Shown piece after piece: positions 30,601-60,958 of a stretch of 64,000 bases of DNA; the first letter of the stretch is position 1, and the number at the start of each line of letters is the position of its first letter. The stretch covers positions 4,749-68,748 of the forward strand of contig DVON01000292.1 in the NCBI GenBank assembly GCA_018713585.1. Direction: 5' to 3'. The notes beneath the pieces are model-generated. The model made no database searches, was not told the DNA's origin, and was given only the letters and a program-made list of their open reading frames with translations. This DNA is from Candidatus Pullilachnospira stercoravium (GTDB taxonomy: Bacteria > Bacillota > Clostridia > Lachnospirales > Lachnospiraceae). The translations under genes were made by a program, and so were the position numbers.

Positions 30601-31022
30601 CGGATACCATCAGTAAACTTTCCAAAGCGATGGATTTCCGGACGGACAGTCTGATTGTCATTATTGAGGATGATAAAACCAGCATGCGCAGGATGCTGGC
30701 TGAGTACCCGGAATTCGCGGAGAAGTTCGCTACTGTGATTTCCATCCCGGTGTTTACCAATGATGAGCTGGTAAGCTTTGCCAGAACCTATGCAAGGGAA
30801 AATGGTTACCGGATGGATGAAATGGGTGTTCTTGCGCTTTATACGCTGATTGGAAACAACCAGAGGGAGGACGAGCCTATTACTGTCGGCAAGGTAAAGG
30901 AAATGGTGGATGGAGCCATCCGGCGGGCAGGAGGCGGTCTGAAACTGGGAAGAAAGATTTCCAAACGCCATACAGATGAGGAAGGCAGAATTTACCTGTA
31001 CGAAAAAGATTTTGATCTTTAA
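27606..31022 (+). CDS. Large TPR-like / acidic low-complexity / AAA+ (SpoVK-CbxX-like) ATPase-domain protein
   Basis: The N-terminal ~190 aa are helical-repeat (TPR-like). An Asp/Glu-rich linker of ~650 aa follows, with 12-aa tandem repeats. The C-terminal domain has Walker A IMGSHGTGKSRLG and a Walker-B-like FLLIERAG. The start is ambiguous among GTG 27606, GTG 27615 and ATG 27636. Confidence 0.72.
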   Translation: MSTVDKTEYRMKLDEINSLVDAQDYEGALQIADTIDWRRVKSIRTLCMVADIYEVNGKLESSMKMLQLAYKRSSVGKMILYRLVELCLKMGRSDDAVSYYNEYLETASNDTSKYILKYKILKAQNAPLDDQIQVLEEYREREYTERWVYELAKLYKRAGKEHKCVETCDDLILWFGEGKYVTKAMELKMTYTPLTVSQREKYEKAVPSPGTGQPFSEKKTEPASVKIPLTSEHAGNAASLAMHTAAAAAEDVSRQDKDGETLEAKAEPSEKGSADADTRMGTHTSADDSRPVPQVDTGKIRENSVQLQERLAKSFQEVLSGINRSRAVASMENLGKAAGTEPLKMPEEENISDYQVKDLKPERSGEDKISGEKGEAIAHRTERPAAPAKVKTEKPEDKEITSVKDVDLEALFAETSSMIAETIGAAQLEAGSETEKAAVLEENTEAEETPAVQAEGVQTEAPADAEESTETEETAVPEESAETEGIAVPEESAETEETAVPEESAEAEETAVPEESAETEETEVPEESADAENAVEDVAADEEEIPQNPEDFSDIEAALAQAAQGFMEETEQEAEPSAAETVEVSGEADAADLDAERAMEAFAASLDSLSDGETDKAAEQAEEGSVSETEELPVSEGEVPEETTESADDAEEAAMAAFEAALNLDTDLSYEETSEEADNLDAEEEREIADEESLEDEESGGDPFLSAVSGNTGELDIEAQLRAVLGGQEEKKGGEIQEDDLARTLFGSEETENGQEETDSLEEELSQEEILEEVPAEEDSSQEEEAGEAEYEEVLTDLPEEEDISAESAETPAEQEDSSGDEEMDFTPDIDLDIVLEANKEKEEEQEQLNIDMLLEEAEAEPEMPATIPEGETPEEKRIRIMNATRPDRLTDQQKKLFSYFAKIPGMDQQILDALNGAYSHSGERTSHRGNIAIMGSHGTGKSRLGDGLVKALCKELGLPAAKYARLDASDMNSKDPARVVAKLSGGFLLIERAGHMSADTISKLSKAMDFRTDSLIVIIEDDKTSMRRMLAEYPEFAEKFATVISIPVFTNDELVSFARTYARENGYRMDEMGVLALYTLIGNNQREDEPITVGKVKEMVDGAIRRAGGGLKLGRKISKRHTDEEGRIYLYEKDFDL
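29011..29205 (+). repeat. In-frame 36-bp tandem repeat (about 5.4 copies) encoding EESAETEETAVP
   Basis: GAAGAAAGCGCGGAGACAGAAGAGACAGCAGTTCCG is repeated head-to-tail with a few substitutions. Confidence 0.9.
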
Positions 31023-36972: not shown

Positions 36973-37018
36973 CATTTGAAAGTGGACAACAGAACGGAAA
37001 GAAGTTGCAAAGAAGAAA

Positions 37019-37069
37019 AACGGGATATGGTAAAATAGCAGTCAAGCTATCCTGCCATATCCCGTTTTC
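37019..37069 (+). terminator. Intrinsic terminator after the kinase gene
   Basis: ACGGGATATGG...GCCATATCCCGT followed by TTTCC, preceded by an A-run. Confidence 0.72.
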
Positions 37070-37208
37070 CATGAATCATGAAGCTGTGGATTTTCATCGG
37101 CAGAGAACGGAAAGCGGGTTTGTCAGGGCGGCAAAGGAGCGGCAGGAAATTCAATGGATTCCGTCGCCGGTAACAGAGTGTGTAGGTGAGAAAGGCAGAG
37201 AGGAGATT

Positions 37209-39482
37209 ATGAGGAACAGGAAAGTAAAAATGACAGCCATCCTGCTGGCGGCTGCGCTGATGACTGCACAGACAGCTTTTGCCGCGCAGGGACAGACAGT
37301 ATCCGGAGGCGGCACTGCTTCCGATGCGCAGATTGAGGAAGAAATGTCCGGCACGGCAGAGGTTGGAAACGAGGCCGGGAAAGACAGCAGTGCCCAAAAG
37401 GATACCGGAGAATCGGTAACAGAGGAAGACGGTACTGCCGGTGAGAACATCGGAAAGTCCAAAGTAGAAGGAAACAAAGCTTCCGGCATAGAAGAAAATA
37501 AAAACGAGATTCCGGATGATGCAGCCGGTCAGACAGATGACGAAGAAAACGATAATTCCGGAACAGAACCGGAAGATACGCAGGTAAGCGGCGTGGAGCC
37601 GGAAGATATGCAGAAAAGCGGTGTGGAGCCGGAAAATATGCAGGGAAGCGGCATGGAGCCGGAAGATACGCAGGAGAGCAGCACAGAGTCGGGGAATACG
37701 CAGGAAAGCAGCGCAGAGCCGGAAGACATGCAGGAAAGCAGCGCAGAGCCGGAAGACATGCAGGAAAGCGGTATGGAACTGGCAGATGTACAGGCAGAGA
37801 TTTTGGAGAACGGGCGTGATGCTGCTGCGGATACGCTTGATGTGTCAGGGCAGGAAGAACGCGGTGTATTTGTGGGAACCACATTCGCCGGATATTCGCA
37901 GGGAGAATCGTATTATGAGTCGGATCTGATCCGGATGCTGGAAGATGCTTCCGGTGATGTGACGATCCGCATGATGCTCTACGGCTTTCAGAACGGGCAG
38001 AGCACCAGACTGACCATCCCTCAGTCTGTTCTGGAAAAGGTGGAGCAGGTGCAGAAACGGCTGATTGTGGAGGTTTTTCAGCCGGGATATGACATGGCCA
38101 TGTTTAACAGCCGCTGGGTGTTTGATCCGTCGATGCCTTCTTACGGAGTGCCCGGAGATATGCTGATGGGAATTGACCTGGGCCTGGATTCGCCTTATTA
38201 TTCCGATTTTCCAGGCGCATGGGATAATAATCCCATTGCCGGGCTTTTACCGGATCCGGAGACGGCCTGGATAGTCTTTGACTTCCCGCAGACCGTTTAT
38301 CCCGGGGGCGAAGGGATGCCGGGATTCTATGTGGAAGTTGCGGACAGAGGCGTTTTTGAGGGAATAAATTCCATGCCGCTGTACCGGTATGATAAAGAAG
38401 GAAACACCCTGTATCGCAGCGGATACGGATACCGGGGAAATGCCGGCATTGTTTCGGGAGAAGGAACCGGGTGGGAGACAGTCCGGATCTACAATCCCCT
38501 GGCGGGACAGTCCTATGCGGTTCTTGACCGGGAACTTTCGGAAGGAGACGGGCAGGATACAGTCTATAATTATCTTCCGACAGAACTGCTCCGGCAGCAG
38601 ATTGCGGATGAGAGCGTGGAGACCATTGAGATTCAGCTGGGCGCCTGCTTCCGCCAGGATCAGTATGTTGTGCCTGCGGAAATTCTGGACAGCCTGAAAG
38701 ACAGCGGGAAAAAGCTGATTCTGAAATGCCTGGGTGTGGAGGCGCAGCCCACCTATCACTGGACTTTTGACGGGGCTGCCATGGATGAAACCATGGATGT
38801 GGATCTGTTTGTGCTGTTTTCTTACAGTGTGTTTGACGAAATTCCGGAAGAGCTGGCGCTGCCTCAGGACAGTCCTTCCATACTTCTGGATTTTGCCCAC
38901 AGCGGGCCGCTGCCGGAGGGGACACTTATCAGCGTGGTGGCTCCGGAGGAGTATAACGGGCAGGGATATCTTTATTACTATGACGAAACGGCGCGGACAT
39001 TTACTTATACGGGAAGAACATCGGTGAGTGAATGGAGCAATGGGTTCTGTTTTGTCACATTTTCCGGGATAGAGCATTGCTCTTACTATTATATGACCAT
39101 GGAAGAACTGGAGGGAAGCCAGGTAATCCTGCCGACGGATCCGGAAGAGCCGACGGTGACGCCGATTCCGCCGACAGATCCGGAGGAACCCACGGTAACA
39201 CCGGCCCCGCCGGCTGACCCGGAGCCTTCGCCCGTACCCGTGCAGCCGTCAGAAGGTACGGGAACGGGTACGGTTACCCCGTCTCCGACAGCGCCGGCTC
39301 CGACACAGGCAGCAGCGCCGCAGCCTTCCGGGCAGACAGAACAGACAGCATCCCCCGCCGCGCAGACCGTACCGGATACCGGCGATAATACACAGGCGGG
39401 ATTGTGGGGAATACTGCTGGCGGCAGGATTTGGTCTGGCAGCAGCGGCCGCGGCGGAATACAGAAAAAGCCGCGTGAAATAA
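37209..39482 (+). CDS. Cell-surface protein with a signal peptide, acidic 10-aa repeats and a C-terminal sortase-type anchor (VPDTG + TM + basic tail)
   Basis: The N-terminus is MRNRKVKMTAILLAAALMTAQTAFA. The C-terminus is VPDTGDNTQAGLWGILLAAGFGLAAAAAAEYRKSRVK. A Pro/Thr-rich stalk precedes the anchor. Confidence 0.78.
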   Translation: MRNRKVKMTAILLAAALMTAQTAFAAQGQTVSGGGTASDAQIEEEMSGTAEVGNEAGKDSSAQKDTGESVTEEDGTAGENIGKSKVEGNKASGIEENKNEIPDDAAGQTDDEENDNSGTEPEDTQVSGVEPEDMQKSGVEPENMQGSGMEPEDTQESSTESGNTQESSAEPEDMQESSAEPEDMQESGMELADVQAEILENGRDAAADTLDVSGQEERGVFVGTTFAGYSQGESYYESDLIRMLEDASGDVTIRMMLYGFQNGQSTRLTIPQSVLEKVEQVQKRLIVEVFQPGYDMAMFNSRWVFDPSMPSYGVPGDMLMGIDLGLDSPYYSDFPGAWDNNPIAGLLPDPETAWIVFDFPQTVYPGGEGMPGFYVEVADRGVFEGINSMPLYRYDKEGNTLYRSGYGYRGNAGIVSGEGTGWETVRIYNPLAGQSYAVLDRELSEGDGQDTVYNYLPTELLRQQIADESVETIEIQLGACFRQDQYVVPAEILDSLKDSGKKLILKCLGVEAQPTYHWTFDGAAMDETMDVDLFVLFSYSVFDEIPEELALPQDSPSILLDFAHSGPLPEGTLISVVAPEEYNGQGYLYYYDETARTFTYTGRTSVSEWSNGFCFVTFSGIEHCSYYYMTMEELEGSQVILPTDPEEPTVTPIPPTDPEEPTVTPAPPADPEPSPVPVQPSEGTGTGTVTPSPTAPAPTQAAAPQPSGQTEQTASPAAQTVPDTGDNTQAGLWGILLAAGFGLAAAAAAEYRKSRVK
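37566..37790 (+). repeat. In-frame 30-bp tandem repeat (about 7 copies) encoding (S/G)xEPED(M/T)Q(E/K)S
   Basis: GAGCCGGAAGA(T/C)ATGCAGGAAAGC(A/G)GCG(C/T)(A/G) units were read directly from the sequence. Confidence 0.88.
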
Positions 39483-39549: not shown

Positions 39550-39576
39550 ATATTCACGACAATGGAAAGCAGCGGA

Positions 39577-40020
39577 TCAAATCTTCAGCTTTACCACATA
39601 TTTCACGTAAGGCGCCGGCTCCTGTCCCTCCGGATGGCGGCAGGGGGCGTGGGCGTCGCTGGGGAAGAGGGCGCAGAACATGCCGGGCTGCATTTCCAGC
39701 TGGCTGCCCGCTCCTTTCAGGGCCAGTTTGTCTTTGGCGGGATCATAGGGGGCGGTTTCCTCCATATTTTCCAACCGGTTCCAGAGTACTGTTTCTTTTC
39801 CCTCCGCGAGAATAAATACATCGATATATTCCCGGTGGGTCTCAAAGGCAGCGTCCTTTACCGGTTTTGTCATCCCGGTCTGACGCATCACATATCCTCC
39901 TGTGAAATAGTGTTTGTCCGGGCTCATGTCCGGTTCTTTTCTGATCGCCTCCAGAGCATCCGCCAGATGAGGCAGACGGTCCGCGTATTCTGCAGCATAT
40001 TCGATACGGTCAACAATCAT
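39577..40020 (-). CDS. YhcH/YjgK/YiaL (DUF386, EbgC-like) cupin-fold protein
   Basis: YFTGGYVMRQTG...ETHREYIDVFILAEGKE...GMFCALFPSDAHAPC matches the family pattern. The start MIVDRIEY at 40020 lies 8 nt after AGGAGG. Confidence 0.8.
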   Translation of the reverse strand: MIVDRIEYAAEYADRLPHLADALEAIRKEPDMSPDKHYFTGGYVMRQTGMTKPVKDAAFETHREYIDVFILAEGKETVLWNRLENMEETAPYDPAKDKLALKGAGSQLEMQPGMFCALFPSDAHAPCRHPEGQEPAPYVKYVVKLKI

Positions 40021-40046
40021 GAGAAATTCCTCCTGTCTTGAAAATT

Positions 40047-40170
40047 GTTTCATTTATTTGGCCGAATGGCCATAGAGGTATCCTTCAGGGTTTCATCTGT
40101 TTGGCCGAATGGCCATAAAGGTATCCTTTAGGGTTTCATTTATTTGGCCGAATGGCCATAAAGGAAGGCT
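40047..40170. repeat. 43-bp direct tandem repeat, 2.9 copies, each containing GGCCGAATGGCC
   Basis: The units span 40047-40089, 40090-40132 and 40133-40170. The unit sequence is GTTTCAT(T/C)T(A/G)TTTGGCCGAATGGCCATA(G/A)AGGTATCCTT(C/T)AGG. The third unit ends at the stop codon of the dehydrogenase gene. Confidence 0.9.
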
Positions 40171-51078: not shown

Positions 51079-53127
51079 ATGAGACAGATTGTAAACGGAA
51101 AGGAAATGGTACTGGGAACCTGCTACTATCCGGAGCACTGGCCGGAGAGCCTGTGGGAGGAGGATCTGGAGCGGATGCTGGAGTGCGGCATCCAGGTGAT
51201 CCGGATTGCCGAATTTGCCTGGAGCAAGGTGGAGCCTTATGAGGGAGTTTTTACCTATGAATTCTTTGACCGGTTCCTGGATCTGGCCCGGGAGAAGGGG
51301 ATGAAGGTGATTTTCTGTACGCCCACCGCCACCCCGCCGGCCTGGCTGACGGAGAAGTATCCGGAGGTGCTCAACGGAACCATCGACGGGGTGCTGTTCC
51401 GCCATGGGGGAAGGCGGCATTACAATTATAACTCCCCGGTGTATCAGGAGAAGACCAGGATCATCACAGAGGCATTTGCCTCCCATTACGGCCCCCATCC
51501 GGCGGTTATCGGGTGGCAGATTGATAATGAGCTGAACTGTGAGCGGGATGAATTTTATTCGGAGAGCGATACAGCGGCGTTCCGGGTATTTCTTCAGAAG
51601 AAATACGGTTCTCTGGACAAGCTGAATGAGGCCTGGGGAACCACCTTCTGGAACCAGACCTATACCGACTGGAAGGAAGTGCACATTCCCAGAACCACGC
51701 CCAGCAACAATACCAATCCCCATGAGGTGCTGGATTACACCCGGTTTATCTCTGACAGCGCCTGCCGGTACGCGAAGCTGCAGAGTGATATTATCCGGAA
51801 ATATGTAAAGCCAGGTGATTTTATCACCACCAACGGGCTGTTTTCCAATCTGGACAACCAGAGGATGGCCGGGGAGAGCCTGGATTTCATCATGTATGAT
51901 TCCTACCCCAATTTTGCCTTTACAAAGGAAAATTATGAGAAATTCTCCGCCACCCTGCAGGATAGAATGTGGAGCCGGAATCTGACGGAGGTGCGGGCGG
52001 TGTCTCCCAATTTCGGGATCATGGAGCAGCAGTCCGGGGCCAACGGATGGAATAACCGGATGGCGGCGCCCACGCCGAAGCCGGGGCAGATGACCCTGTG
52101 GACAATGCAGAGCGCGGCCCATGGGGCGGATTATGTCAGCTATTTCCGCTGGCGGACCTGTACTATGGGGACGGAGATTTACTGGCACGGGATTCTGGAT
52201 TATTCCGGAAGGGAGAACCGGAGACTGCGGGAGGTTCGGGAAATCCACAGGAAATTCCAGGCCATTTCCGAAGCGGCAGGCTCCCGGTATGAGGCCCGGA
52301 CGGCGGTTTTGAAGGATTATGACAATATCTGGGATGCCCAGCTGGATATCTGGCACGGGGATGTGGACCGGCTCAGCCAGCAGTCGCTTTTCCTGGCGGC
52401 GCAGAAGAGCCACACGCCCATGGATTATGTGTATCTGAGAGAGGACACCACGGCGGCGGATCTGAAAAAATATCAGGTGATTTTCTATCCGCATCCGGTG
52501 ATTGTCAATCAGCAGCGGGCGGCCATTCTGGAGGAGTATGTGAAGGATGGCGGCTGCCTGGTGCTGGGCTGCCGCAGCGGCTATAAGGACATGACCGGAA
52601 AATGCGTGATGGACAGGCTGCCGGGGCTGTTTGCGAAAATGAGCGGTACCGATATCCCCGAATATACCCGGGTAAATCCGGATGATGAACCGGTGTATAT
52701 CGACTGGGACGGTATCCGCCTGGAGGCGGCTGTATTCAACGATCAGCTGGAACCCCTGACCGCAGACGCGCAGGTGCTGGGCCGGTATGAAAACTGCTAC
52801 TATGCCGGCGCGCCGGGGCTGATCTGCAATGCGCTGGGAGAAGGCAAGGTTTATTATTTCGGCGCGGCCTTTACGGAGGAGACGGCCCGGGTATTCCTGG
52901 AAAAACTGGGAGCGGCTTCCCCATACGCGGATGTACTGGAACTTCCCCGGGAATGTGAGCTGGCGGTTCGGGAAAAGGATGGAAGGAAGTATTATTTTGT
53001 GCTGAATTATAAGAAGACGCCGGTGAAGATTCAGGTGAAGGAAGAGCTGGTGGATTTGTATACCGGTGAAACTGTCAGCGGCCAGGTGGAGCTGGAAGCC
53101 TTTGGGACGAAAGTTTACCGGGGGTGA
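51079..53127 (+). CDS. GH42-family beta-galactosidase
   Basis: LGTCYYPEHWPE, IGWQIDNE (acid/base Glu region) and MEQQSG (nucleophile Glu region) are present. The protein is 682 aa. Confidence 0.92.
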   Translation: MRQIVNGKEMVLGTCYYPEHWPESLWEEDLERMLECGIQVIRIAEFAWSKVEPYEGVFTYEFFDRFLDLAREKGMKVIFCTPTATPPAWLTEKYPEVLNGTIDGVLFRHGGRRHYNYNSPVYQEKTRIITEAFASHYGPHPAVIGWQIDNELNCERDEFYSESDTAAFRVFLQKKYGSLDKLNEAWGTTFWNQTYTDWKEVHIPRTTPSNNTNPHEVLDYTRFISDSACRYAKLQSDIIRKYVKPGDFITTNGLFSNLDNQRMAGESLDFIMYDSYPNFAFTKENYEKFSATLQDRMWSRNLTEVRAVSPNFGIMEQQSGANGWNNRMAAPTPKPGQMTLWTMQSAAHGADYVSYFRWRTCTMGTEIYWHGILDYSGRENRRLREVREIHRKFQAISEAAGSRYEARTAVLKDYDNIWDAQLDIWHGDVDRLSQQSLFLAAQKSHTPMDYVYLREDTTAADLKKYQVIFYPHPVIVNQQRAAILEEYVKDGGCLVLGCRSGYKDMTGKCVMDRLPGLFAKMSGTDIPEYTRVNPDDEPVYIDWDGIRLEAAVFNDQLEPLTADAQVLGRYENCYYAGAPGLICNALGEGKVYYFGAAFTEETARVFLEKLGAASPYADVLELPRECELAVREKDGRKYYFVLNYKKTPVKIQVKEELVDLYTGETVSGQVELEAFGTKVYRG

Positions 53128-53278
53128 GGTATGATGCGGGGGTGAACTTCCCCGGATTTGAGGTGGAAAATAATTCTTTATATGGCAATATGGGAAGTGG
53201 AGAAGAAGGATTTTCTGCAGTGACTTTGGGCTGAAAGCCATGGGAGGTGAAATCCTGCGGCAGGAAAGGATAGAAGTA

Positions 53279-54105
53279 TACGGCGGGAAATGGAGGAATG
53301 GGAGTTTCTGCCGAAGGAAATGGCGTAGGTGTACGGTGGGAAATGAAAAAATGAATTTCCGCCGTAGAGTAAAGCGTAGGTGTACGGTGGAAATGAAGAA
53401 AGGTGAATTTCTGCCGTAGAAAAAAGCGCAAGTGTACGGTAGAGAAATGAAAAAATGAATTCCTGCCGTAGAGTAAGGCACAAGTGTACGGCGGGAAATG
53501 AAGAAAGGCGAAATTCTGCAGTAGAAAAGAAAGTAAGTGTACGGCAGGGAAATGAAAAAATGAATTCCTGCCGTAGAGTAAGGCGCAAGTGTACGGTGGA
53601 AAATGAAGAAAGGGGAAATTCTGCAGTAGAAAAGAGAGCAAGTGTACGGCGGGGAAATGAAAAAGTGAATTTCCGCCGTAGGATAAGGCGCAAGTGCACG
53701 GCAGAAAATGAAGAAAGACGAATTTCTGCCGTAGGATAAGGCGCAAGTGCACGGCAGAAAATGAAGAAAGGCGAAATTCTGCCGTAGGATAAGGCGCAAG
53801 TGTACGGTGGAAATGAAGAAAGGAGAATTCCTGCCGTAGAGCAAGGCGCAAGTGTACGGTGGAAATGAAGAAAGACAAATTTCCGCCGTAGAAGAGAGCG
53901 AAAGTATACGGCAGGATACGAAGAAAAGCGATTTCCTGCCGCAGTGACAGGCGGAAGGATACGGCGGAAATAAAGAAAAGTGAAATTCCGCCGTAGAAGA
54001 GAGCGAAAGTATACGGCAGGATACGAAGAAAAGCGATTTCCTGCTGCAGTGACAGGCAGAAGGATACGGCGGAATTTGAAAAGGTGATTTTTCCGGTTTG
54101 CCATT
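53279..54105 (+). repeat. Array of 16 head-to-tail hairpin units (51-53 bp period); a non-coding tandem inverted-repeat array that is not CRISPR
   Basis: Unit anchors (T/C)ACGG lie at 53279, 53332, 53383, 53435, 53487, 53540, 53592, 53645, 53697, 53750, 53803, 53855, 53907, 53960, 54012 and 54065. Each unit has the arms TACGG(C/T)(G/A)GGAAAT...ATTTC(C/T)GCCGTA around a purine-rich loop, followed by a 13-16-nt conserved linker. The plus strand assignment is based on G-T mismatch asymmetry. Confidence 0.9.
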
Positions 54106-54211
54106 GTTTCATTCTATTGTTTTATTGATTTGTGGATATGGCATGAGGATGAATTAAGGTTATTCGGGGATAATGCCGCAGGAAGGTATCTGTCTGAAGG
54201 GAGGTTACAGC

Positions 54212-55282
54212 GTGAAAACAAGATTTGCCATCGTAGGATATGGCTGGCGGGCGCAGTTTTATCTGCGGGCGGCGCGGATGATTCCGCAGGAATTTGAGGT
54301 CACTTCCATTGTGACCAGAAGCGGGGAGCGGGCGGCGCAGATCCGGAAGGAGACGGGGATTCCGGCAGTGTGCAGCCTTGAGGAGGCACTGGGGGATCAG
54401 CCGGATTTTGTTCTTCTGTGTGTGCCCCGGGCGGTGATGAAGGACTGGATTGTCCGGCTGATGGAGCAGAAAATTCCGGTGCTCTGCGAGACGCCGCCGG
54501 GGAAAGACGTGGATGAGCTGAATGAACTGTGGAAGGAGAAGGTGAGGCTTGGCGGAAATGTACAGGTGACGGAGCAGTATTTCCTTCAGCCTTATTACGC
54601 GGCCATGATCCGGCTGGCACGTTCGGGGCTGCTGGGGGATATTTCCAATATGAACATGTCCGCCATTCACGGTTACCATGCGGTGAGTATTTTCCGGAAA
54701 GTGCTGGGTGTGGGATTTGAAAACTGTGAGATTTTGGGCAGGAGATTCCGCTTCCCGGTGACGGAAACCCGCGACCGGGCAGGGTGGCATTACGGAGGAC
54801 GGATGCTTTGTCCTGACAGAGACCGGGTGGACCTGGTGTTTGAAAGCGGAAGGACGGCGTTTTTTGATTTCTCTCAGGAGCAGTATTTCTCTCCCATCCG
54901 CAGCCGGACCTGGAACGTGCAGGGCAGCAGGGGAGAAATCCGCGATATGGATGTGTACTGGCTCAATGAGAAGAATCAGGTGATCCGGGAACATATGCGG
55001 CGGGAAGATGACGGTGTTTACAACATCGACGGGTGGAGCCATCTGTGGATTACCCTGTCAGGGGAACGCATTTATGAAAATCCCTTCCCGCAGGCCAGAC
55101 TCAATGACGATGAGCTGGCGGTGGCGGACGTGCTGCGGCATATGGGAAGAAGCGTCCGGGAGGGCGTGGATTTCTATCCTTTGAGGGAGGGACTGCAGGA
55201 TGCGTACCTGGATTTCTGTATGGAGGAAGCGCTGCGGACAGGAAATGCGGTGCGGACAGAGGCGCAGAGCTGGGTGCCATAA
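54212..55282 (+). CDS. Gfo/Idh/MocA-family oxidoreductase
   Basis: The N-terminal Rossmann motif is RFAIVGYGWRAQFY. The start is GTG at 54212, 7 nt after GGGAGG. The ORF is open from 54173. Confidence 0.82.
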   Translation: MKTRFAIVGYGWRAQFYLRAARMIPQEFEVTSIVTRSGERAAQIRKETGIPAVCSLEEALGDQPDFVLLCVPRAVMKDWIVRLMEQKIPVLCETPPGKDVDELNELWKEKVRLGGNVQVTEQYFLQPYYAAMIRLARSGLLGDISNMNMSAIHGYHAVSIFRKVLGVGFENCEILGRRFRFPVTETRDRAGWHYGGRMLCPDRDRVDLVFESGRTAFFDFSQEQYFSPIRSRTWNVQGSRGEIRDMDVYWLNEKNQVIREHMRREDDGVYNIDGWSHLWITLSGERIYENPFPQARLNDDELAVADVLRHMGRSVREGVDFYPLREGLQDAYLDFCMEEALRTGNAVRTEAQSWVP

Positions 55283-55420
55283 GAGCGGGCCGGAAAAAGA
55301 GAAACAGAAGAGCCGAAAACGGCCAGGAAAAAAGTGCAACAGGGCTGAAAGTCAGTCAGGATAAAAAGAACAACAGGGAAAGAAAGCGAGAGAAGGACAG
55401 AAAAAACGGGAGGCAGATCC

Positions 55421-56005
55421 ATGAAATTTCAATGGTTAAATGAAAGTGAGATCACAGAAAAGGATAACAGAATCGAGATCACGGCCCCTGCGAAATCGGA
55501 TTTTTTCCGTGGAAGCGCCGATGAGAGAAATGGCGCCGCGCCGATGATCGCGGAGAACGCGCCTTTTTATTACACGGAGATCGACGGGGATTTTGTGCTG
55601 AAGGTGAGGGTTTCCCTTGAATTTAAAGATACTTATGATTCGGCCTGCGTGATGGTGATGAAGGATATGGGCTGCTGGGCGAAGGTATGCTATGAGCTGA
55701 CGGATTTCGGAACCCGCGCGGCGGTCAGCGTTGTGACGAAAGGGGATTCCGACGATGCCAACGGGTGCAACCTGGAGGGGGATGCGGCATGGCTGAAGGT
55801 GTGCAGAGTGGGAAATCATTTTACCTTCCATTACTCCACGGACGGGGAGCGGTTTTATATGATGCGGTATTTTCATCTTCCGGCGGATCCGGTGATGAAG
55901 GTGGGGCTTCTGGCGCAGGCACCCACCGGGGACGGAGGCGTCCGGATTTTTGAAAATCTCACCATAGAGAAACGGACCGTGGAGAATATCCGGGCGGGAG
56001 AATGA
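55421..56005 (+). CDS. DUF1349-family (concanavalin-like fold) protein
   Basis: The pattern MKFQWLNESE...ITAPAKSDFF...GDFVLKVRV...AGLMV-like, the size (194 aa) and the context in glycoside-utilisation loci all fit the family. Confidence 0.7.
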   Translation: MKFQWLNESEITEKDNRIEITAPAKSDFFRGSADERNGAAPMIAENAPFYYTEIDGDFVLKVRVSLEFKDTYDSACVMVMKDMGCWAKVCYELTDFGTRAAVSVVTKGDSDDANGCNLEGDAAWLKVCRVGNHFTFHYSTDGERFYMMRYFHLPADPVMKVGLLAQAPTGDGGVRIFENLTIEKRTVENIRAGE

Positions 56006-58675: not shown

Positions 58676-60958
58676 TCAGGAATTGCCCTGGCTGGCCCGG
58701 GCCTGCTCGGCTGCATATTCCTGTGCCCTTTTTGTGCCGGGAAAGATCAGTTCACCCGTGGCCTCAAAATTTGCCAGCGCCTGTTCTGTCCTGCTTCCCA
58801 TATTCTGGATTCCCTGCAGGATGGTTTTCATCATCTTGGCGTTCTCCTCGGAAAAATACGGAGCGCCGTCAATATTGAACCACTCGACGAAGGTGTCGAT
58901 GGCCATGGGATTTACCTCTCCGTCCACATGGGCGTTGGCTGCGGCATTTGCCTGCATGCCGATTTCCAGCAGCGAAAGTGCCTTGTTGAGATTGGCTGTC
59001 AGTTTTGCCATTTTTGCAAGATTCTTATGCTCAAGAGACGCGATTTCCAGATATTTTTCCAGAAGATCCCGTACTTCGGCCGATTTGTCGGAGTTTGCCA
59101 GCCGGTTCAGCCGGGTAATCAGTTCCTGAACCATTTGGGTTCCCCTCTGGCTGGTTCCTCCATAGCCGGAGGGTATCGTGCCGGAAGCATTGCTATCGTT
59201 ATCGGAAGAATCGTCTGACGGATCACCTTCGCCGTTATCCTTATTCTGCGCGTCCGCCTTGTCTTTTTCTTTTTGGGCTTCGTCCTTTGTCATCAGGCTT
59301 TCCTCAGCCTGCTGCAGCAGTGCGATGACTTCGTCAATTTCCTGATAAAGGGCTTTCCCGCCGCTGTATGGATACTGGCACTGGTTCCGGAAAAAGTTCA
59401 GACACTGCACGTAAATGTTGTAGAATGGCATCCAGCTTTCTTCCGTATATTCTGCGTTTTTATCCCCACCATAGGTTTCATTCATTTTTCTCAGAAGATT
59501 TTCCAGGTTCCGGGCGCTGACCTGGTGTTTCGTTTCCGCATTTGCCATGTCATTGTCCAGATCTGCGGTTATATAATCCACTTCCTCCTGAGTAGCCTGA
59601 GAATTTCCCAGAACGCTCATCCCGTACTGATAGCTGAACCAGAGGGCGTTGTAGGAATCCTCGGTCAGTTCTTCGGTGGGTTCCTCCCGGTGCGGTTGAA
59701 TATATTCGCTCATGGCTTTCTCTACCAGCTCTGCCAGCTGCTCCTTGTTTACTTCAGGTTCCGGAGTGGGCTGCGGATCGGGCTCCGGTTCCGGGGCTGG
59801 ATCTGGAGTGGGACTCGGCTCCGGGTCAGGTTCCGGGGTGGGTTCGGGTTCCGGTTCAGGATCCGGTTCCGGGATTGGTTCCGGGTCTTTGGGGATCAGA
59901 TGCTGCTGATCCGGGGGGACCGGAGGCGGAGTGCCAAATTCGGACTTATAACTGTCGTAGTCGTACCGGCGGTATCCGTCATGGTAGGTTGCCGCGTAAT
60001 AATTACCCCAGTCGCTCCATTTGTGCTCGACACCTGTGTACCAGTAGCCAAACTCACTCATATCTCCCCATTTCAATACATAAGACAGCCCTCCACCGAA
60101 TACCCAGACCTTTGTACTCCCGGCATCCAGCCACTGCCCGGTTGGTGCAGGATCTCCATCCTGAGGCTTTTGGGTATCATTATCGCCATCACTGTCATCG
60201 CCATCGCCTGGCAGAGGCACATCGGTATTGCCGTCGCTGTCATCGTCGCCCGGAAGAGGCACATCGGTATTGTCATCGTCATCGTCGCCCGGAAGAGGGA
60301 CGTCGGTATCGTCGTCGTTATCATCGTCATCGCCCGGAAGAGGGACGTCGGTATCGTCGTCGTTATCATCGCCATCACCCGGAAGAGGGGCGTCGGTATC
60401 GTCGTCGTTATCATCGCCATCACCCGGAAGAGGGACATCGGTATCGTCGTTGCTGTCATCGTCATCGTCGCCCGGAAGAGGGACATCGGTATTGTCGTCG
60501 CTGTCATCACCATCGCCCGGAAGAGGCACATCGGTACCGTCATCACTGTCATTGCTATCATCCGGAAGAGAGTCATCGGTATTACTATCGTTGTCATTGC
60601 CGGGAAGCGGATCATCAGAAACGCTTCCATTATTCCCCGAACCGCTGCCGTCAGGAATGGACGTGTCGGATCCGCCGGTAGATCCGCTGGTATCCGATCC
60701 GGTGCTGTCATCGGAAGTATTCCGGGGTGTGGCATCTGCCGCTGAAACATTTTGTATGGTTTTCATGATTTCCAATGTGTTTCCGGTATCCGGAACGGAT
60801 GTATCCGCATCGGACGGCAGTGATGCCTCTGCCTGTATTTCGGTATTCTGTGTTCCTGAAGGCGTGTTCTCATTTTCCTGTGCCCATGCTGTCTGAGGAA
60901 TTGCCATGGAGACAGCGAGGAACAAAGCCGCCGGTTTCATGATCCATTTCTTTTTCAT
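58676..60958 (-). CDS. Secreted protein with Asp-rich 15-aa tandem repeats, a W/Y-rich module, a (P-E/D-P) linker and a helical C-terminal domain
   Basis: The signal peptide is MKKKWIMKPAALFLAVSMAIPQTAWA. Repeats of (D/N)TDVPLPGDGDD(S/N)DD follow, then PEPDPEPEPEPTPEPDPEPSP. Confidence 0.72.
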   Translation of the reverse strand: MKKKWIMKPAALFLAVSMAIPQTAWAQENENTPSGTQNTEIQAEASLPSDADTSVPDTGNTLEIMKTIQNVSAADATPRNTSDDSTGSDTSGSTGGSDTSIPDGSGSGNNGSVSDDPLPGNDNDSNTDDSLPDDSNDSDDGTDVPLPGDGDDSDDNTDVPLPGDDDDDSNDDTDVPLPGDGDDNDDDTDAPLPGDGDDNDDDTDVPLPGDDDDNDDDTDVPLPGDDDDDNTDVPLPGDDDSDGNTDVPLPGDGDDSDGDNDTQKPQDGDPAPTGQWLDAGSTKVWVFGGGLSYVLKWGDMSEFGYWYTGVEHKWSDWGNYYAATYHDGYRRYDYDSYKSEFGTPPPVPPDQQHLIPKDPEPIPEPDPEPEPEPTPEPDPEPSPTPDPAPEPEPDPQPTPEPEVNKEQLAELVEKAMSEYIQPHREEPTEELTEDSYNALWFSYQYGMSVLGNSQATQEEVDYITADLDNDMANAETKHQVSARNLENLLRKMNETYGGDKNAEYTEESWMPFYNIYVQCLNFFRNQCQYPYSGGKALYQEIDEVIALLQQAEESLMTKDEAQKEKDKADAQNKDNGEGDPSDDSSDNDSNASGTIPSGYGGTSQRGTQMVQELITRLNRLANSDKSAEVRDLLEKYLEIASLEHKNLAKMAKLTANLNKALSLLEIGMQANAAANAHVDGEVNPMAIDTFVEWFNIDGAPYFSEENAKMMKTILQGIQNMGSRTEQALANFEATGELIFPGTKRAQEYAAEQARASQGNS
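60185..60600 (-). repeat. In-frame ~45-bp tandem repeats (about 9 copies) encoding the Asp-rich DTDVPLPGDGDDNDD units
   Basis: Repeated GGAAGAGG(G/C)AC(G/A)TCGGTAT(C/T)GTCGTCG(T/C)T(A/G)TCATCG(C/T)CATC(A/G)CCC blocks were read directly from the sequence. Confidence 0.85.

What the first reader, a model, noticed from the sequence alone, without database searches (positions are those of the whole stretch)
53215..54105. 0.85-kb array of 16 tandem hairpin units between two sugar-metabolism genes
The whole gap between the GH42 stop (53127) and the oxidoreductase start (54212) is filled by head-to-tail units with a 51-53 bp period.

Each unit has an 11-13 bp inverted repeat, TACGG(C/T)(G/A)GGAAAT ... 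ATTTC(C/T)GCCGTA. The arms flank a purine-rich 10-12 nt loop (GAAGAAAGGCG or GAAAAAATG). A conserved purine-rich linker follows (for example GAGTAAGGCGCAAGTG).

Two unit subtypes alternate in the first half, giving a higher-order repeat of about 105 bp. The last four units alternate between two further subtypes. A degenerate unit precedes the array at about 53215.

The linkers resemble each other and are only 13-16 nt long, so this is not a CRISPR array. No toxin gene follows it, so it does not look like a type III antitoxin array.

Stem mismatches are mostly T opposite G on the plus strand. By hand I count about 12 such positions, against about 3 that would be wobble pairs only on the minus strand. 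That is what a plus-strand RNA stem tolerating G-U pairs would show. The plus strand is also the strand of both flanking genes, so the array could be transcribed as 16 consecutive stem-loops inside an operon mRNA.

Possible roles are an RNA-binding-protein sponge, an mRNA processing or stability module, or a DNA-level protein-binding or recombination array. I know of no described element class with this architecture.
Basis: seen in the sequence. Interest (0 to 1): 0.78.

Follow-up and report, generated by a model that had tools for sequence, protein, structure and literature searches.

The report
Dispersed hairpin-unit tandem repeat array
The 0.85-kb stretch is a real, non-coding array of sixteen 52-53-bp hairpin units. 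It is one of at least five such arrays scattered through the genome of an uncultured chicken-gut Lachnospiraceae bacterium, and it behaves like a variable-copy palindromic repeat element with no function shown so far.

Summary
**Observation: confirmed.** Window 53279-54100 holds 15 complete units and one partial unit of 51-53 bp. Each unit has arms TACGGYRG.../...CYGCCGTA(G), a purine-rich loop and a purine-rich linker. Decayed units precede the array.

**Not coding.** The period is not a multiple of 3. All three minus-strand frames are stop-free only because the plus strand is 68% purine.

**Not any checked class.** It is not CRISPR, TIGR, a type III antitoxin or any Rfam family.

**Host and history.**
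- The host is Candidatus Pullilachnospira stercoravium.
- Every sampled strain carries the array, with 6-16 assembled units.
- The sister species has it too, with a variant unit whose two arms changed in a compensatory way.
- A relative at 85% nucleotide identity has only a 54-bp gap at this junction.

**Dispersed family.** Four other arrays in the same species share the outer arms and the geometry (37-38-nt hairpin, 14-16-nt linker) at unrelated intergenic sites. At least three further species carry similar arrays. No single units were found outside arrays.

**What does not hold up.** The plus-strand G·T excess (12 versus 4) is real here, but it is absent in the other arrays and can be explained by C-to-T mutation bias. 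Covariation within arrays is not significant.

**Best reading.** This is a REP/BIME-like and MIRU-like hairpin minisatellite family. It is probably co-transcribed as a stack of stem-loops inside the sugar operon.

The parts
51079..53127 (+). Upstream gene: GH42 beta-galactosidase. It is identical to HIV14244.1 of Candidatus Pullilachnospira stercoravium.
   Evidence: Pfam Glyco_hydro_42, 42M and 42C, E = 1e-120. Exact look-up.
53138..53154 (+). Small GGGG/CCCC hairpin directly after the GH42 stop. It has no U-tract, so it is not a convincing terminator.
   Evidence: Read from the sequence. The terminator scan lists nothing here.
53189..53278 (+). Leader made of two decayed units: TATGGGAAGTGG...CTGCAGTGAC, then ...GGGCTGAAAGCC...CCTGCGGCAGGAAAGGATAGAAGTA. 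It is conserved in all strains and in the sister species.
   Evidence: Comparison with L057, L058, L059 and L130, where the first decayed unit still reads TACGGCAGGAAG... or TACGGTAGGAAG....
53279..54064 (+). Fifteen complete 51-53-bp units. Each has left arm TACGGYRG(G)AAAT, a purine-rich loop (GAAGAAAGGNG or GAAAAAATG), right arm ATTTCYGCCGTA(G), and a 14-16-nt purine-rich linker.
   Evidence: TRF. Unit table. Covariance model R1 scores 30-47 bits, E = 3e-7 to 1e-12, for all 15 units on the + strand. Single units fold at -13 to -16 kcal/mol.
54065..54100 (+). Sixteenth, partial unit (TACGGCGGAATTTGAAAAGGTGATTTTTCCGG). It keeps the left arm only. It is the conserved 3' edge of the array in all strains and in the sister species.
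54101..54211 (+). Non-repeat, T-rich trailer, followed by the ribosome-binding site (GGGAGG) of the oxidoreductase. No promoter-like or terminator-like site was found.
   Evidence: The trailer is absent from the relative L065, which has a 54-bp junction.
54212..55282 (+). Downstream gene: Gfo/Idh/MocA-family oxidoreductase. The GTG at 54212 gives the 356-aa form; an upstream ATG at 54173 gives the 369-aa form.
   Evidence: Pfam GFO_IDH_MocA. The exact protein is present on 24+ contigs.
53075..54112 (-). Spurious open reading frames over the array (345 aa; also 53178-54104, 308 aa). These are not genes.
   Evidence: Zero stops in all three minus frames; the + strand is 68% purine. No Pfam hit. 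One-unit (52/53-bp) differences between strains shift the frame.
55335..55365 (+). Single copy of a second, unrelated purine-rich hairpin repeat: a 33-bp unit with GGCTGAAAG(C/T)C. It is present in 4.4 copies in another strain.

Best explanation
**What it is.** The feature is one locus of a dispersed family of hairpin-unit minisatellites in the chromosome of Candidatus Pullilachnospira stercoravium, an uncultured Lachnospiraceae from chicken gut.

**The unit.**
- It is 52-53 bp long.
- Its outer arms are nearly invariant: TACGGCRG and CYGCCGTA(G).
- The inner stem extension varies between arrays.
- The loop is purine-rich and usually contains GAAGAAA.
- The linker is 14-16 nt long.

**History (shown).**
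- The array sits in what was a tight GH42-oxidoreductase operon junction, 54 bp long in a relative.
- It predates the split of P. stercoravium and P. intestinigallinarum.
- Since then it has evolved by gain, loss and homogenisation of whole units, giving 6-16 assembled units among strains and a replaced unit type in the sister species.

**Persistence and spread (inferred).** The arms stay conserved and pairable because hairpin formation is needed for whatever spreads and expands the units. That could be hairpin-stabilised slippage or unequal recombination within an array, plus an unidentified step that seeds new loci.

**Effect at this locus (inferred).**
- The array lies in the sense orientation between co-directional genes.
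- No promoter-like or terminator-like site was detected between it and the downstream gene.
- It is therefore most likely transcribed with the operon as about 16 consecutive stem-loops.
- There it would act as REP elements and clostridial intergenic stem-loops do: as barriers to exonucleases and sites of processing that uncouple the mRNA levels of the GH42 gene and the downstream genes.
- This effect would be a by-product of the element's presence, and copy number would tune it.
For: **Anatomy and repeat structure:**

**Same locus in all strains.** Contigs that encode identical flanking proteins carry 12, 13, 15 or 16 units. Strains about 97% identical carry 6-15 units in a different mix.

**Sister species.** L130 flanks are 93-97% identical. 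It has the same leader and trailer, but four copies of a variant unit with arms GGAACGGTT/AACCGTTCC.

**Empty site.** L065 (flanks 85-88% identical, same gene order) has a 54-bp junction. L066 has about 85 bp.

**Family.**
- Pattern scans returned tandem non-coding arrays only with a linker of 14-16 nt and an interior of 20-21 nt. The pattern allowed 12-18 and 18-28. Non-tandem hits spread over the whole allowed range.
- Flanking proteins of L071, L091 and L105 are identical to proteins named P. stercoravium, or to proteins from the same MAG accession series as the window's own proteins. For L086 the match is 98%.
- The neighbouring genes are unrelated from one array to the next.
- Copy number also varies at the other loci (L086 against L078; L091 against L088 and L127).

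**Hairpin maintained.** The sister-species variant changed both sides at position 1 (T-A to A-T) and at position 7 (R-Y to T-A), changed T·G to T-A at position 6, and gained two outer G-C pairs. It folds at -15.5 kcal/mol. Inner stem extensions differ between arrays but stay complementary.

**No gene product and no known RNA family:**

**No promoter-like or terminator-like site between the array and the oxidoreductase:**

**Precedents.**
- REPs sit between co-directional genes, often show G·T pairs, and can be reiterated in tandem (PMC3733652).
- Intergenic stem-loops set transcript stoichiometry in clostridial operons (PMC4423207, PMC10311766; abstracts only).
Against: - No transcript data exist here, so co-transcription and any effect on mRNA are inference.
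- Many units carry stem-breaking changes: 16 'other' and 13 A·C among 320 pairs in 40 distinct units. One unit folds no better than shuffles (-6.9 kcal/mol, z -1.1). Any selection on each hairpin is therefore weak.
- Within an array, a unit's own two arms pair no better than arms drawn from different units (7.28 against 7.22 +/- 0.04 pairs; about 11% of shuffles reach the observed value).
- The step that seeds new loci is unknown.
  - No transposase, RAYT-like or other candidate gene lies in the 64-kb window or next to any array.
  - No single units were found outside arrays. Known REP families do have singletons.
- One array (L056) lies antisense to both neighbouring genes and outside their transcripts.
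- Copy numbers come mostly from short-read metagenome assemblies, which can collapse repeats.
Confidence: 0.6

Rival explanations
1. It is a dedicated structured-RNA system. The arrays are transcribed, and either cut into hairpin RNAs of about 52 nt, or they titrate a specific RNA-binding protein that recognises the UACGGCRG stem and the GAAGAAA loop (a sponge like CsrB, or a guide or antitoxin-like array whose partner is encoded elsewhere).
For: - The outer arms, the loop motif GAAGAAA and the unit geometry are conserved across arrays whose remaining sequence has diverged.
- The arms changed in a compensatory way in the sister species.
- Three of the four arrays with an informative context lie in the sense orientation.
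- Two arrays are followed by a terminator-like hairpin in the same orientation (L086; L056).
Against: - No partner gene is linked to any array.
- Units within an array are near-identical, so they carry no guide-like diversity.
- There is no Rfam match.
- The G·T bias is not family-wide, and neither strand folds preferentially.
- Many units are decayed.
- Copy number varies 6-16 without any visible constraint.
Confidence: 0.15
2. It is a double-stranded-DNA protein-binding array: inverted half-sites TACGGCRG repeated every five helical turns (52.5 bp). They would be bound by a dimeric nucleoid, partition-like or regulatory protein, in the manner of the repeated inverted-repeat units of plasmid centromeres.
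For: - The arms are conserved as sequence rather than as pairs. L=CAG with R=CCG (A·C) is common in L086, L091 and L071. Within-unit complementarity does not exceed shuffled pairings.
- The period of 51-53 bp is kept while loops and linkers diverge.
- There are several arrays per chromosome.
Against: - The sister-species variant replaced the half-site sequence while keeping complementarity. This fits a hairpin and not a fixed recognition sequence.
- Inner stem extensions co-vary between arrays.
- Strong purine asymmetry in loops and linkers has no role on duplex DNA.
- There is no adjacent ParB, HTH or other candidate gene.
- The 21-bp spacing between half-sites is unusually large.
- The comparison with plasmid centromeres rests on my own knowledge and was not tested here.
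Confidence: 0.1
3. The minus strand encodes a real repeat protein. Gene callers predict 175-308-aa products, and the accession gap between HIV14244.1 and HIV14246.1 suggests the public record also has a gene call here.
For: ORFs of 345 and 308 aa. Sixteen similar predicted proteins exist in public collections.
Against: - All three minus frames are open because the plus strand is 68% purine.
- The period of 52-53 bp is not a multiple of 3.
- Strains differ by single units, which shifts the frame. The 'homologues' are only 38-79% identical, while the flanking proteins are identical or about 97% identical.
- There is no Pfam match.
- Only 6 hits appear among 1.84 billion representative proteins.
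Confidence: 0.02
4. It is a member of a known array class: CRISPR, TIGR-Tas or a type III toxin-antitoxin antitoxin.
For: Regularly spaced short palindromic repeats, with a unit length in the range of type III antitoxin repeats.
Against: - The segments between arms are themselves repeated, not unique.
- There are no cas, Nop-domain (tas) or ToxN/AbiQ-like genes in 64 kb or next to any of the arrays.
- TIGR stem-loop units have variable stems and two 8-12-nt spacers with box C/D motifs, and they lie at tas loci (PMC12045711; bioRxiv 10.64898/2026.09.09.750476).
Confidence: 0.02

Closest known systems
GTAG-tagged REP elements and their clusters (BIMEs) of Proteobacteria and other phyla (Di Nocera et al. 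2013, PMC3733652; Nunvar et al. 2010, PMC2817692)
   Same: - A short imperfect palindrome with a 6-13-bp stem.
- A GTAG at one end.
- G·T pairs in the stems.
- Many copies at intergenic sites, mostly between co-directional genes.
- Clusters that can be reiterated in tandem.
- Sub-families with complementary stem changes.
- Proposed effects on mRNA stability.
   Different: - Here the GTA of GTAG is inside the stem, paired with TAC, rather than unpaired.
- Loops are 10-21 nt rather than mostly 2-4.
- Units are strictly head-to-tail. [quoted passage not shown]
- No single units were seen outside arrays.
- Neither paper mentions Firmicutes, and no RAYT gene was seen here.
   Same: Tandem repeats of 40-100 bp (including a 51-53-bp class), inside operons between co-directional genes, at many loci of one genome, with copy number that varies between strains.
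   Different: - No sequence relationship and a different phylum.
- MIRUs are not built on a strong hairpin, and are described as carrying small ORFs that overlap the flanking genes.
- The units here have no conserved mini-ORF.
Intergenic stem-loops of selective RNA processing and stabilisation (SRPS) operons in cellulolytic Clostridia (PMC4423207, PMC10311766, PMC8219983; abstracts seen)
   Same: Stem-loops between genes of polycistronic glycoside-hydrolase operons in Clostridia. They would set the relative stability of the upstream and downstream mRNA segments. This is the mechanism I infer for this locus.
   Different: Those are single, locus-specific stem-loops at gene 3' ends. They are not a 16-unit array of a dispersed repeat family. 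Function is shown there and not here.
TIGR stem-loop arrays of TIGR-Tas systems (PMC12045711; bioRxiv 10.64898/2026.09.09.750476)
   Same: Tandem stem-loop units in arrays that CRISPR finders miss. They also occur in gut bacteria.
   Different: - TIGR units carry two variable 8-12-nt spacers flanked by box C/D motifs.
- Their stems diverge within an array.
- The arrays lie at or inside a tas (Nop-domain) gene.
- None of this holds here.
Type III toxin-antitoxin antitoxin arrays (ToxI-like); from my own knowledge
   Same: Head-to-tail repeats of a few dozen nucleotides, transcribed as one RNA.
   Different: - No toxin gene follows this or any other array.
- The copy number is far higher.
- The family occurs at many unrelated loci.

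Membership tests
REP / BIME (GTAG super-family) | Short imperfect palindrome (stem 6-13 bp) | tested here: met
   RNAalifold finds a 10-pair consensus stem across 15 representative units; within the window's array the complementary arms reach 11-13 nt. Units fold at -13 to -20 kcal/mol, z -2.3 to -4.1.
REP / BIME (GTAG super-family) | Unpaired GTAG (or CGTC) tag at one end of the palindrome | tested here: inconclusive
   CCGTAG is conserved at the 3' end of the right arm, but GTA pairs with the TAC of the left arm. Only the final G is unpaired. Definition taken from PMC3733652.
REP / BIME (GTAG super-family) | High copy number at dispersed intergenic sites, including single units and inverted dimers | tested here: inconclusive
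   At least five arrays (about 40 units or more) lie at different intergenic loci of the species. The covariance model finds no single unit in the 64-kb window or in 150 kb of related loci. The whole genome could not be scanned.
REP / BIME (GTAG super-family) | Alternating orientation of neighbouring units in clusters | tested here: not met
   All units are head-to-tail.
REP / BIME (GTAG super-family) | A RAYT (Y1 transposase) gene in the genome, flanked by the repeats | not testable with these tools
   No Y1 transposase in the window or next to any array. The rest of the genome was not available.
CRISPR array | Repeats separated by unique spacers of similar length | tested here: not met
   Loops and linkers are themselves repeated and are 10-21 and 14-16 nt long.
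CRISPR array | cas genes nearby | tested here: not met
   No Cas family among 55 of the window's ORFs scanned against Pfam.
TIGR-Tas | Array at or within a tas gene (Nop-domain protein) | tested here: not met
   No Nop-domain hit in the window or beside the other arrays. Distant Tas proteins could escape Pfam.
TIGR-Tas | Two variable 8-12-nt spacers per unit, flanked by box C/D motifs, with stems that vary within an array | tested here: not met
   Units within an array are near-identical, and the linker is too short for two spacers.
Type III toxin-antitoxin (antitoxin RNA array) | Array immediately upstream of an endoribonuclease toxin gene | tested here: not met
   The downstream gene is a Gfo/Idh/MocA oxidoreductase. 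Other arrays precede PadR, an aroD-like gene, a radical SAM gene and a flavodoxin gene.
Intergenic VNTR / minisatellite (MIRU-like behaviour) | Tandem units of tens of bp in intergenic DNA, with copy number polymorphic between strains, at several loci | tested here: met
   6-16 units at this locus. 5 against 7 units at the addA locus and 4.1-5.5 at the radical-SAM locus. Caveat: short-read assemblies can collapse repeats.
Any Rfam family | Match to a curated covariance model | tested here: not met
   No match at gathering score in the window or in nine other loci. The best match at E up to 10 is noise.

The most novel reading that the evidence does not exclude
The arrays belong to an undescribed system of Clostridia with a dedicated trans-acting partner encoded elsewhere in the genome. 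The partner would be one of two kinds:
- a hairpin-specific (HUH/RAYT-like or other) enzyme that seeds and extends head-to-tail arrays with a fixed ruler of 37-38 + 15 nt; or
- an RNA-binding or processing protein for which the transcribed arrays serve as multi-site sponges or precursors of hairpin RNAs of about 52 nt.
Probability: 0.15. Interest if true: 0.75.

Novelty: new variant of a known kind. Interest (0 to 1): 0.45.

Why it matters
**Practical value.**
- Gene callers turn these arrays into 'hypothetical proteins'. At least 16 such predicted proteins are in public collections.
- The arrays break short-read assemblies. Many contigs end at this one.
- They give ready-made VNTR markers for strain typing of an uncultured gut bacterium.

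**Biological value.** The papers read here on REP elements do not mention Firmicutes. A hairpin-repeat family in Lachnospiraceae that keeps its outer arms and a fixed geometry at many loci poses two open questions:
- what spreads it; and
- whether a 16-hairpin insert in the middle of a sugar operon changes how the flanking genes are expressed.

If a partner protein exists, the family would be a new tool-like nucleic-acid/protein pair. If none exists, it is a clean bacterial example of a self-propagating hairpin minisatellite.

Tried and rejected
1. **Rfam.** No family matched the region at E up to 10, the whole window at gathering score, or nine other array loci.
2. **Protein coding on the minus strand.** Rejected on frame statistics, frame shifts between strains, no Pfam hit, and only same-locus 'homologues'.
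3. **CRISPR, TIGR-Tas and type III antitoxin.** Rejected on their defining features.
4. **BLAST of the array against plasmid and phage collections.** No match. The viral-contig pattern scan gave two GC-rich single hits only.
5. **Most pattern-scan hits in genomes and metagenomes.**
   - Single matches in GC-rich DNA, with gap lengths spread over the allowed range, are chance or coding (Gly/Tyr-rich repeats such as L124, and L087/L103).
   - Arrays with periods of 54 or 60 bp were set aside as probably coding.
6. **Literature search for the arm sequences as text.** It returned only primers. A search for '52/53-bp repeat' gave nothing relevant.
7. **The G·T bias as evidence for a plus-strand RNA.** It is reproduced in this array but is not family-wide, and C-to-T changes on one strand can explain it.
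8. **Strand preference from folding energy.** The plus strand folds 73 kcal/mol lower, but its shuffles do too. The z-scores are equal.
9. **Orientation relative to genes.** Only four arrays have co-directional neighbours and a clear orientation. Three are sense and one is antisense, which is not significant. Arrays in divergent intergenic regions are uninformative.
10. **Conserved mini-ORFs in the units** (for example ATGAAGAAAGGCGAAATTCTGCCGTAG). They are present in some units of this array but not conserved across the family (read).
11. **CsrA-type GGA-loop sponge.** The GGA lies in the stem extension and not in the loop. This was not pursued.
Full report
**1. What is there**

The sequence between the GH42 beta-galactosidase gene (51079-53127, +) and a Gfo/Idh/MocA oxidoreductase gene (54212-55282, +) contains a tandem array.
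- Tandem Repeats Finder gives period 52 (14.5 copies) and, with a higher score, period 105 (7.4 copies, 82% matches) over 53274-54044.
- Cutting at the left arm yields 16 units of 51-53 bp starting at 53279. The last one (54065) keeps only its left arm and runs into a T-rich trailer.
- Each unit reads: TACGGYRG(G)AAAT, a purine-rich loop, ATTTCYGCCGTA(G), and a 14-16-nt purine-rich linker.
- Two decayed units lie upstream, from about 53189.
- The arm motif is far more frequent than chance: 60 matches against 8.2 +/- 2.7 in shuffles. All perfect matches are in the array.
- About 60 nt after the GH42 stop and about 110 nt before the oxidoreductase start are not repeat.
- The arms form a palindromic set, so each right arm can also pair with the next left arm. 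Which segment is 'loop' and which is 'linker' cannot be decided from the sequence.

**2. It is not a gene and not a known RNA or array class**
- All three minus-strand frames are free of stops across 891 nt, while the plus frames have 13-18 stops. The cause is 68% purine on the plus strand.
- The minus-strand ORFs have no Pfam match.
- The period is not a multiple of 3, and strains differ by single 52/53-bp units, which shifts the frame. The 'homologous proteins' are only 38-79% identical although the flanking proteins are identical or nearly so.
- An exhaustive HMMER search of 1.84 billion representative proteins found six hits.
- Rfam 15 has nothing for this array or for nine related loci.
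- No Cas, Nop-domain (Tas), ToxN-like or transposase family appears among 55 of the window's ORFs scanned against Pfam, or beside the other arrays.
- TIGR stem-loop arrays differ in every defining respect. They have variable stems, two 8-12-nt spacers with box C/D motifs, and a location at a tas gene (PMC12045711; bioRxiv 10.64898/2026.09.09.750476).

**3. Host and history of this locus**

The flanking proteins are identical to proteins of Candidatus Pullilachnospira stercoravium, a chicken-gut Lachnospiraceae known from metagenome-assembled genomes.

| Genomes compared | Flank identity | What lies at the junction |
|---|---|---|
| Contigs with exactly the same GH42 or oxidoreductase | identical proteins | Array with 12, 13 (plus a gap), 15 or 16 units; many contigs break at the array |
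| Other P. stercoravium strains | about 97-98% nt | 6 to about 15 units in a different mix; edge units conserved, inner units homogenised |
| Sister species Ca. P. intestinigallinarum (L130) | 93-97% nt | Same leader, first units and last units; centre holds four copies of a variant 53-bp unit |
| Relative L065, same gene order | 85-88% nt | GH42 stop and oxidoreductase start only 54 bp apart; no array and no DUF1349 gene |
| Relative L066 | oxidoreductase 86% aa | About 85 bp; no array |

One contig, L058, has a name typical of a long-read assembler and carries about 14 units.

The variant unit in the sister species is AACGGTTAAAATGGAAGAAAGTGTCGATAGAACCGTTCCGGAAGGCAGAATGG.

So the array is a lineage-specific insertion into a formerly tight operon junction. 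It is older than the split of the two Pullilachnospira species, and it turns over by whole units.

**4. It is one member of a dispersed family**

I scanned for two adjacent units with these arms, using the pattern GCCGTAG N12-18 YACGGYRG N18-28 CYGCCGTAG. The scan covered 185,579 species genomes and the metagenome collection, and returned 95 loci.
- Most are single hits in GC-rich DNA, with gap lengths spread over the allowed range. They are chance or coding matches.
- Every tandem, non-coding hit has a linker of 14-16 nt and an interior of 20-21 nt, which gives a period of 51-53 bp.
- These arrays do not align with the window's array by BLAST at E < 1e-10.
- They share the outer arms, a 37-38-nt hairpin span, usually a GAAGAAA motif in the loop, and a purine-rich linker beginning GTAGARAA.

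Their neighbouring genes are unrelated:
- AddA helicase-nuclease and PadR (L086/L078);
- an aroD-like gene near sigE (L071/L081);
- a radical SAM gene and an MFS transporter (L091/L088/L127);
- a zf-HC2 protein and a flavodoxin (L105);
- NlpC/P60 and DUF1934 (L100);
- a thiamine transporter and phosphoglucomutase (L056);
- DUF308 and SpoIIP (L040).

Exact protein look-ups place four of these loci in the same species as the window.
- L071's SigE is HIV12763.1, and its neighbour clusters with HIV12766.1.
- L091's MFS transporter is HIV13399.1.
- L105's zf-HC2 protein is MFQ6805162.1, in the same accession series as the window's DUF1349 protein (MFQ6806339.1).
- L086's AddA is 98% identical to MBS6734385.1, in the series that also holds the window's DUF1349 protein (MBS6735090.1).

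The P. stercoravium chromosome therefore carries at least five arrays. L056, L031 and L040 come from other species representatives (a Firmicutes, a Ruminococcus and an Oscillospiraceae MAG). L114/L125 is a GC-rich array of 51-bp units from an unknown host.

A covariance model built from 15 representative units (R1) recovers all units of all arrays. It finds no convincing single unit elsewhere in the 64-kb window or in 150 kb of related loci. The array has no match in the plasmid or phage collections.

**5. Is the hairpin selected, and on which strand?**

*For a maintained hairpin.*
- Relative to the ancestral unit, the sister-species variant changed both partners at position 1 (T-A to A-T) and at position 7 (R-Y to T-A).
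- It also turned T·G into T-A at position 6 and gained two outer G-C pairs. It folds at -15.5 kcal/mol.
- The inner stem extension differs between arrays yet stays complementary: GAAAT/ATTTC, GGAT/ATCC, GGCCGATG/CATCGGCC, ATAA/TTAT.

*Against strong selection on each unit.*
- Among 40 distinct units of the species, the outer eight pairs are 258 Watson-Crick, 33 G·T, 13 A·C and 16 other.
- A unit's own arms pair no better than arms shuffled among units of the same array: 7.28 against 7.22 +/- 0.04 pairs, with about 11% of shuffles reaching the observed value. The other arrays show no difference at all.
- The RNAalifold covariation term is only -0.28 kcal/mol.
- Decayed units such as unit 5 fold no better than shuffles.

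- It is reproduced in this array: 12 G·T against 4 A·C.
- It rests on a T at arm position 6 and a T opposite position 7, each shared by many units.
- Both are C-to-T changes on the plus strand, which here is also the G-rich strand and the strand of most neighbouring genes.
- The other arrays have 9 G·T against 12 A·C.
- The plus-strand RNA folds 73 kcal/mol lower than the minus strand, but so do its shuffles. The z-scores are -11.1 and -11.6.

I conclude that a hairpin matters to this family. The data do not tell whether it matters as RNA, as single-stranded DNA, or for the amplification process itself.

**6. Mechanism: what is shown and what is inferred**

*Shown.*
- The array is non-coding.
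- It was inserted in an operon junction.
- It gains and loses units.
- It belongs to a multi-locus family with conserved arms and geometry.
- No gene is linked to the arrays.

*Inferred, step 1.* Arrays expand and contract by slippage or unequal recombination between units. Hairpin-forming units are favoured in expansion. This would explain why an amplified variant has compensated arms without any need for a cellular function.

*Inferred, step 2.* New loci are seeded by an unknown step. The conserved outer arms ending in GTAG recall REP elements and their Y1 transposases (PMC3733652, PMC2817692). No such gene could be looked for outside the window.

*Inferred, step 3.*
- At this locus the array is in the sense orientation, and no promoter-like or terminator-like site lies between it and the oxidoreductase.
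- It is therefore probably part of the GH42-oxidoreductase-DUF1349-GH42 transcript.
- About 16 stem-loops of -13 to -16 kcal/mol would then act as barriers to 3'-5' and 5'-3' exonucleases and as processing sites.
- REP elements and the intergenic stem-loops of clostridial SRPS operons are reported to act this way (PMC3733652; PMC4423207 and PMC10311766, abstracts).
- The purine-rich, Shine-Dalgarno-like linkers (AAGG, GGAG, GAGG) might add ribosome-binding 'stabiliser' sites. This last point rests only on my knowledge of such elements in Bacillus.

*Orientation does not help.* Of four arrays with co-directional neighbours and a clear orientation, three are sense (window, L086, L100) and one is antisense (L056). 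L056 also lies outside both neighbouring transcripts: its thiamine-transporter gene has its own promoter-like site and TPP riboswitch downstream of the array.

**7. Comparison with what is known**

The closest kinds are the following.
- GTAG-tagged REP clusters/BIMEs.
- MIRU-type intergenic VNTRs.
- For the inferred effect only, SRPS stem-loops.

Against REP/BIME, one defining feature is not met: units here are head-to-tail and do not alternate in orientation. Two are inconclusive: the GTAG is largely paired, and no singletons were found. One could not be tested: presence of a RAYT gene. I therefore describe the element as REP-like in how it probably works, not as a REP family member.

I found no description of this family in Rfam, in the repeat literature I could search, or under the arm sequences as text.

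**8. Verdict**

| Question | Answer |
|---|---|
| Observation | Confirmed |
| Novelty | New variant of a known kind: palindromic-unit repeat elements, here as strictly head-to-tail 52-53-bp arrays in Lachnospiraceae |
| Interest | Moderate (0.45). The element is real and undescribed, but bacterial hairpin repeats and intergenic VNTRs are familiar, and nothing yet points to a dedicated function |
| Most novel reading not excluded | A trans-acting partner, either a hairpin-specific mobilising enzyme or an RNA-binding/processing protein. Probability about 0.15 |

Noticed in passing
window 55283-55420 (unit copy about 55335-55365); L011 5117-5261: A second variable tandem repeat lies in the same operon, between the oxidoreductase stop and the DUF1349 start. 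Its unit is 33 bp and purine-rich (GAAAAAAGGACAACAGGGCTGAAAGCCAGTCAG), with a small GGCT-GAAA-AGCC hairpin. The window has about 1 copy and another strain has 4.4. The same GGGCTGAAAGCC hairpin also occurs in the leader of the large array (53229-53241).
   Followed up: partly
window 40047-40164: A third small hairpin-containing tandem repeat: 43 bp x 2.7 copies, 92% matches, with unit GTTTCATTTATTTGGCCGAATGGCCATAAAGGTATCCTTCAGG holding the inverted repeat TGGCC...GGCCA. It sits directly after the stop of the ORF 39562-40041. It is unrelated in sequence to the main family.
   Followed up: no
window 55421-56005; L065 and L130: The DUF1349 gene between the oxidoreductase and the second GH42 gene is present in P. 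stercoravium. It is absent from the sister species (L130) and from the more distant relative (L065), so the operon gained a gene as well as the repeat arrays.
   Followed up: partly
window 53075-54112 (-); public record around HIV14244.1-HIV14246.1: The GH42 and oxidoreductase proteins have accessions HIV14244.1 and HIV14246.1, which leaves one number between them. This suggests that the GenBank MAG annotates the array as a hypothetical protein. Metagenome gene callers certainly do, giving products of 175-308 aa. This is an inference from the numbering and was not checked in the record.
   Followed up: no
window 6507-6768, 28959-29194, 37564-37771, 59780-59887, 60181-60582: Several in-frame tandem repeats (periods 72, 36, 30, 30 and 45 bp) lie inside long ORFs: a P-type ATPase and three large proteins without Pfam matches (27606-31022, 37005-39482, 58676-60958). 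They look like repeat-containing, probably surface proteins.
   Followed up: no
L056 2454-2559 (-), 2583-2611 (-): A TPP riboswitch (66 bits) and a near-consensus promoter-like site precede the thiamine-transporter gene next to the L056 array. That array therefore lies outside both neighbouring transcripts. It has a TATAAT-like hexamer upstream and a terminator-like hairpin downstream on its own strand, so it could be an independent transcript.
   Followed up: partly
L042 5300-5420; L024 120-330: Two units of 58 bp with perfect 13-bp arms CTACGGCGGATAA/TTATCCGCCGTAG lie between a DnaB helicase gene and an AAA ATPase gene in a gammaproteobacterial MAG. A 60-bp repeat with CTACGGCGG/CCGCCGTGG arms lies in an actinomycete. 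Whether these are related to the clostridial family or merely share the arm sequence by chance is unresolved.
   Followed up: no
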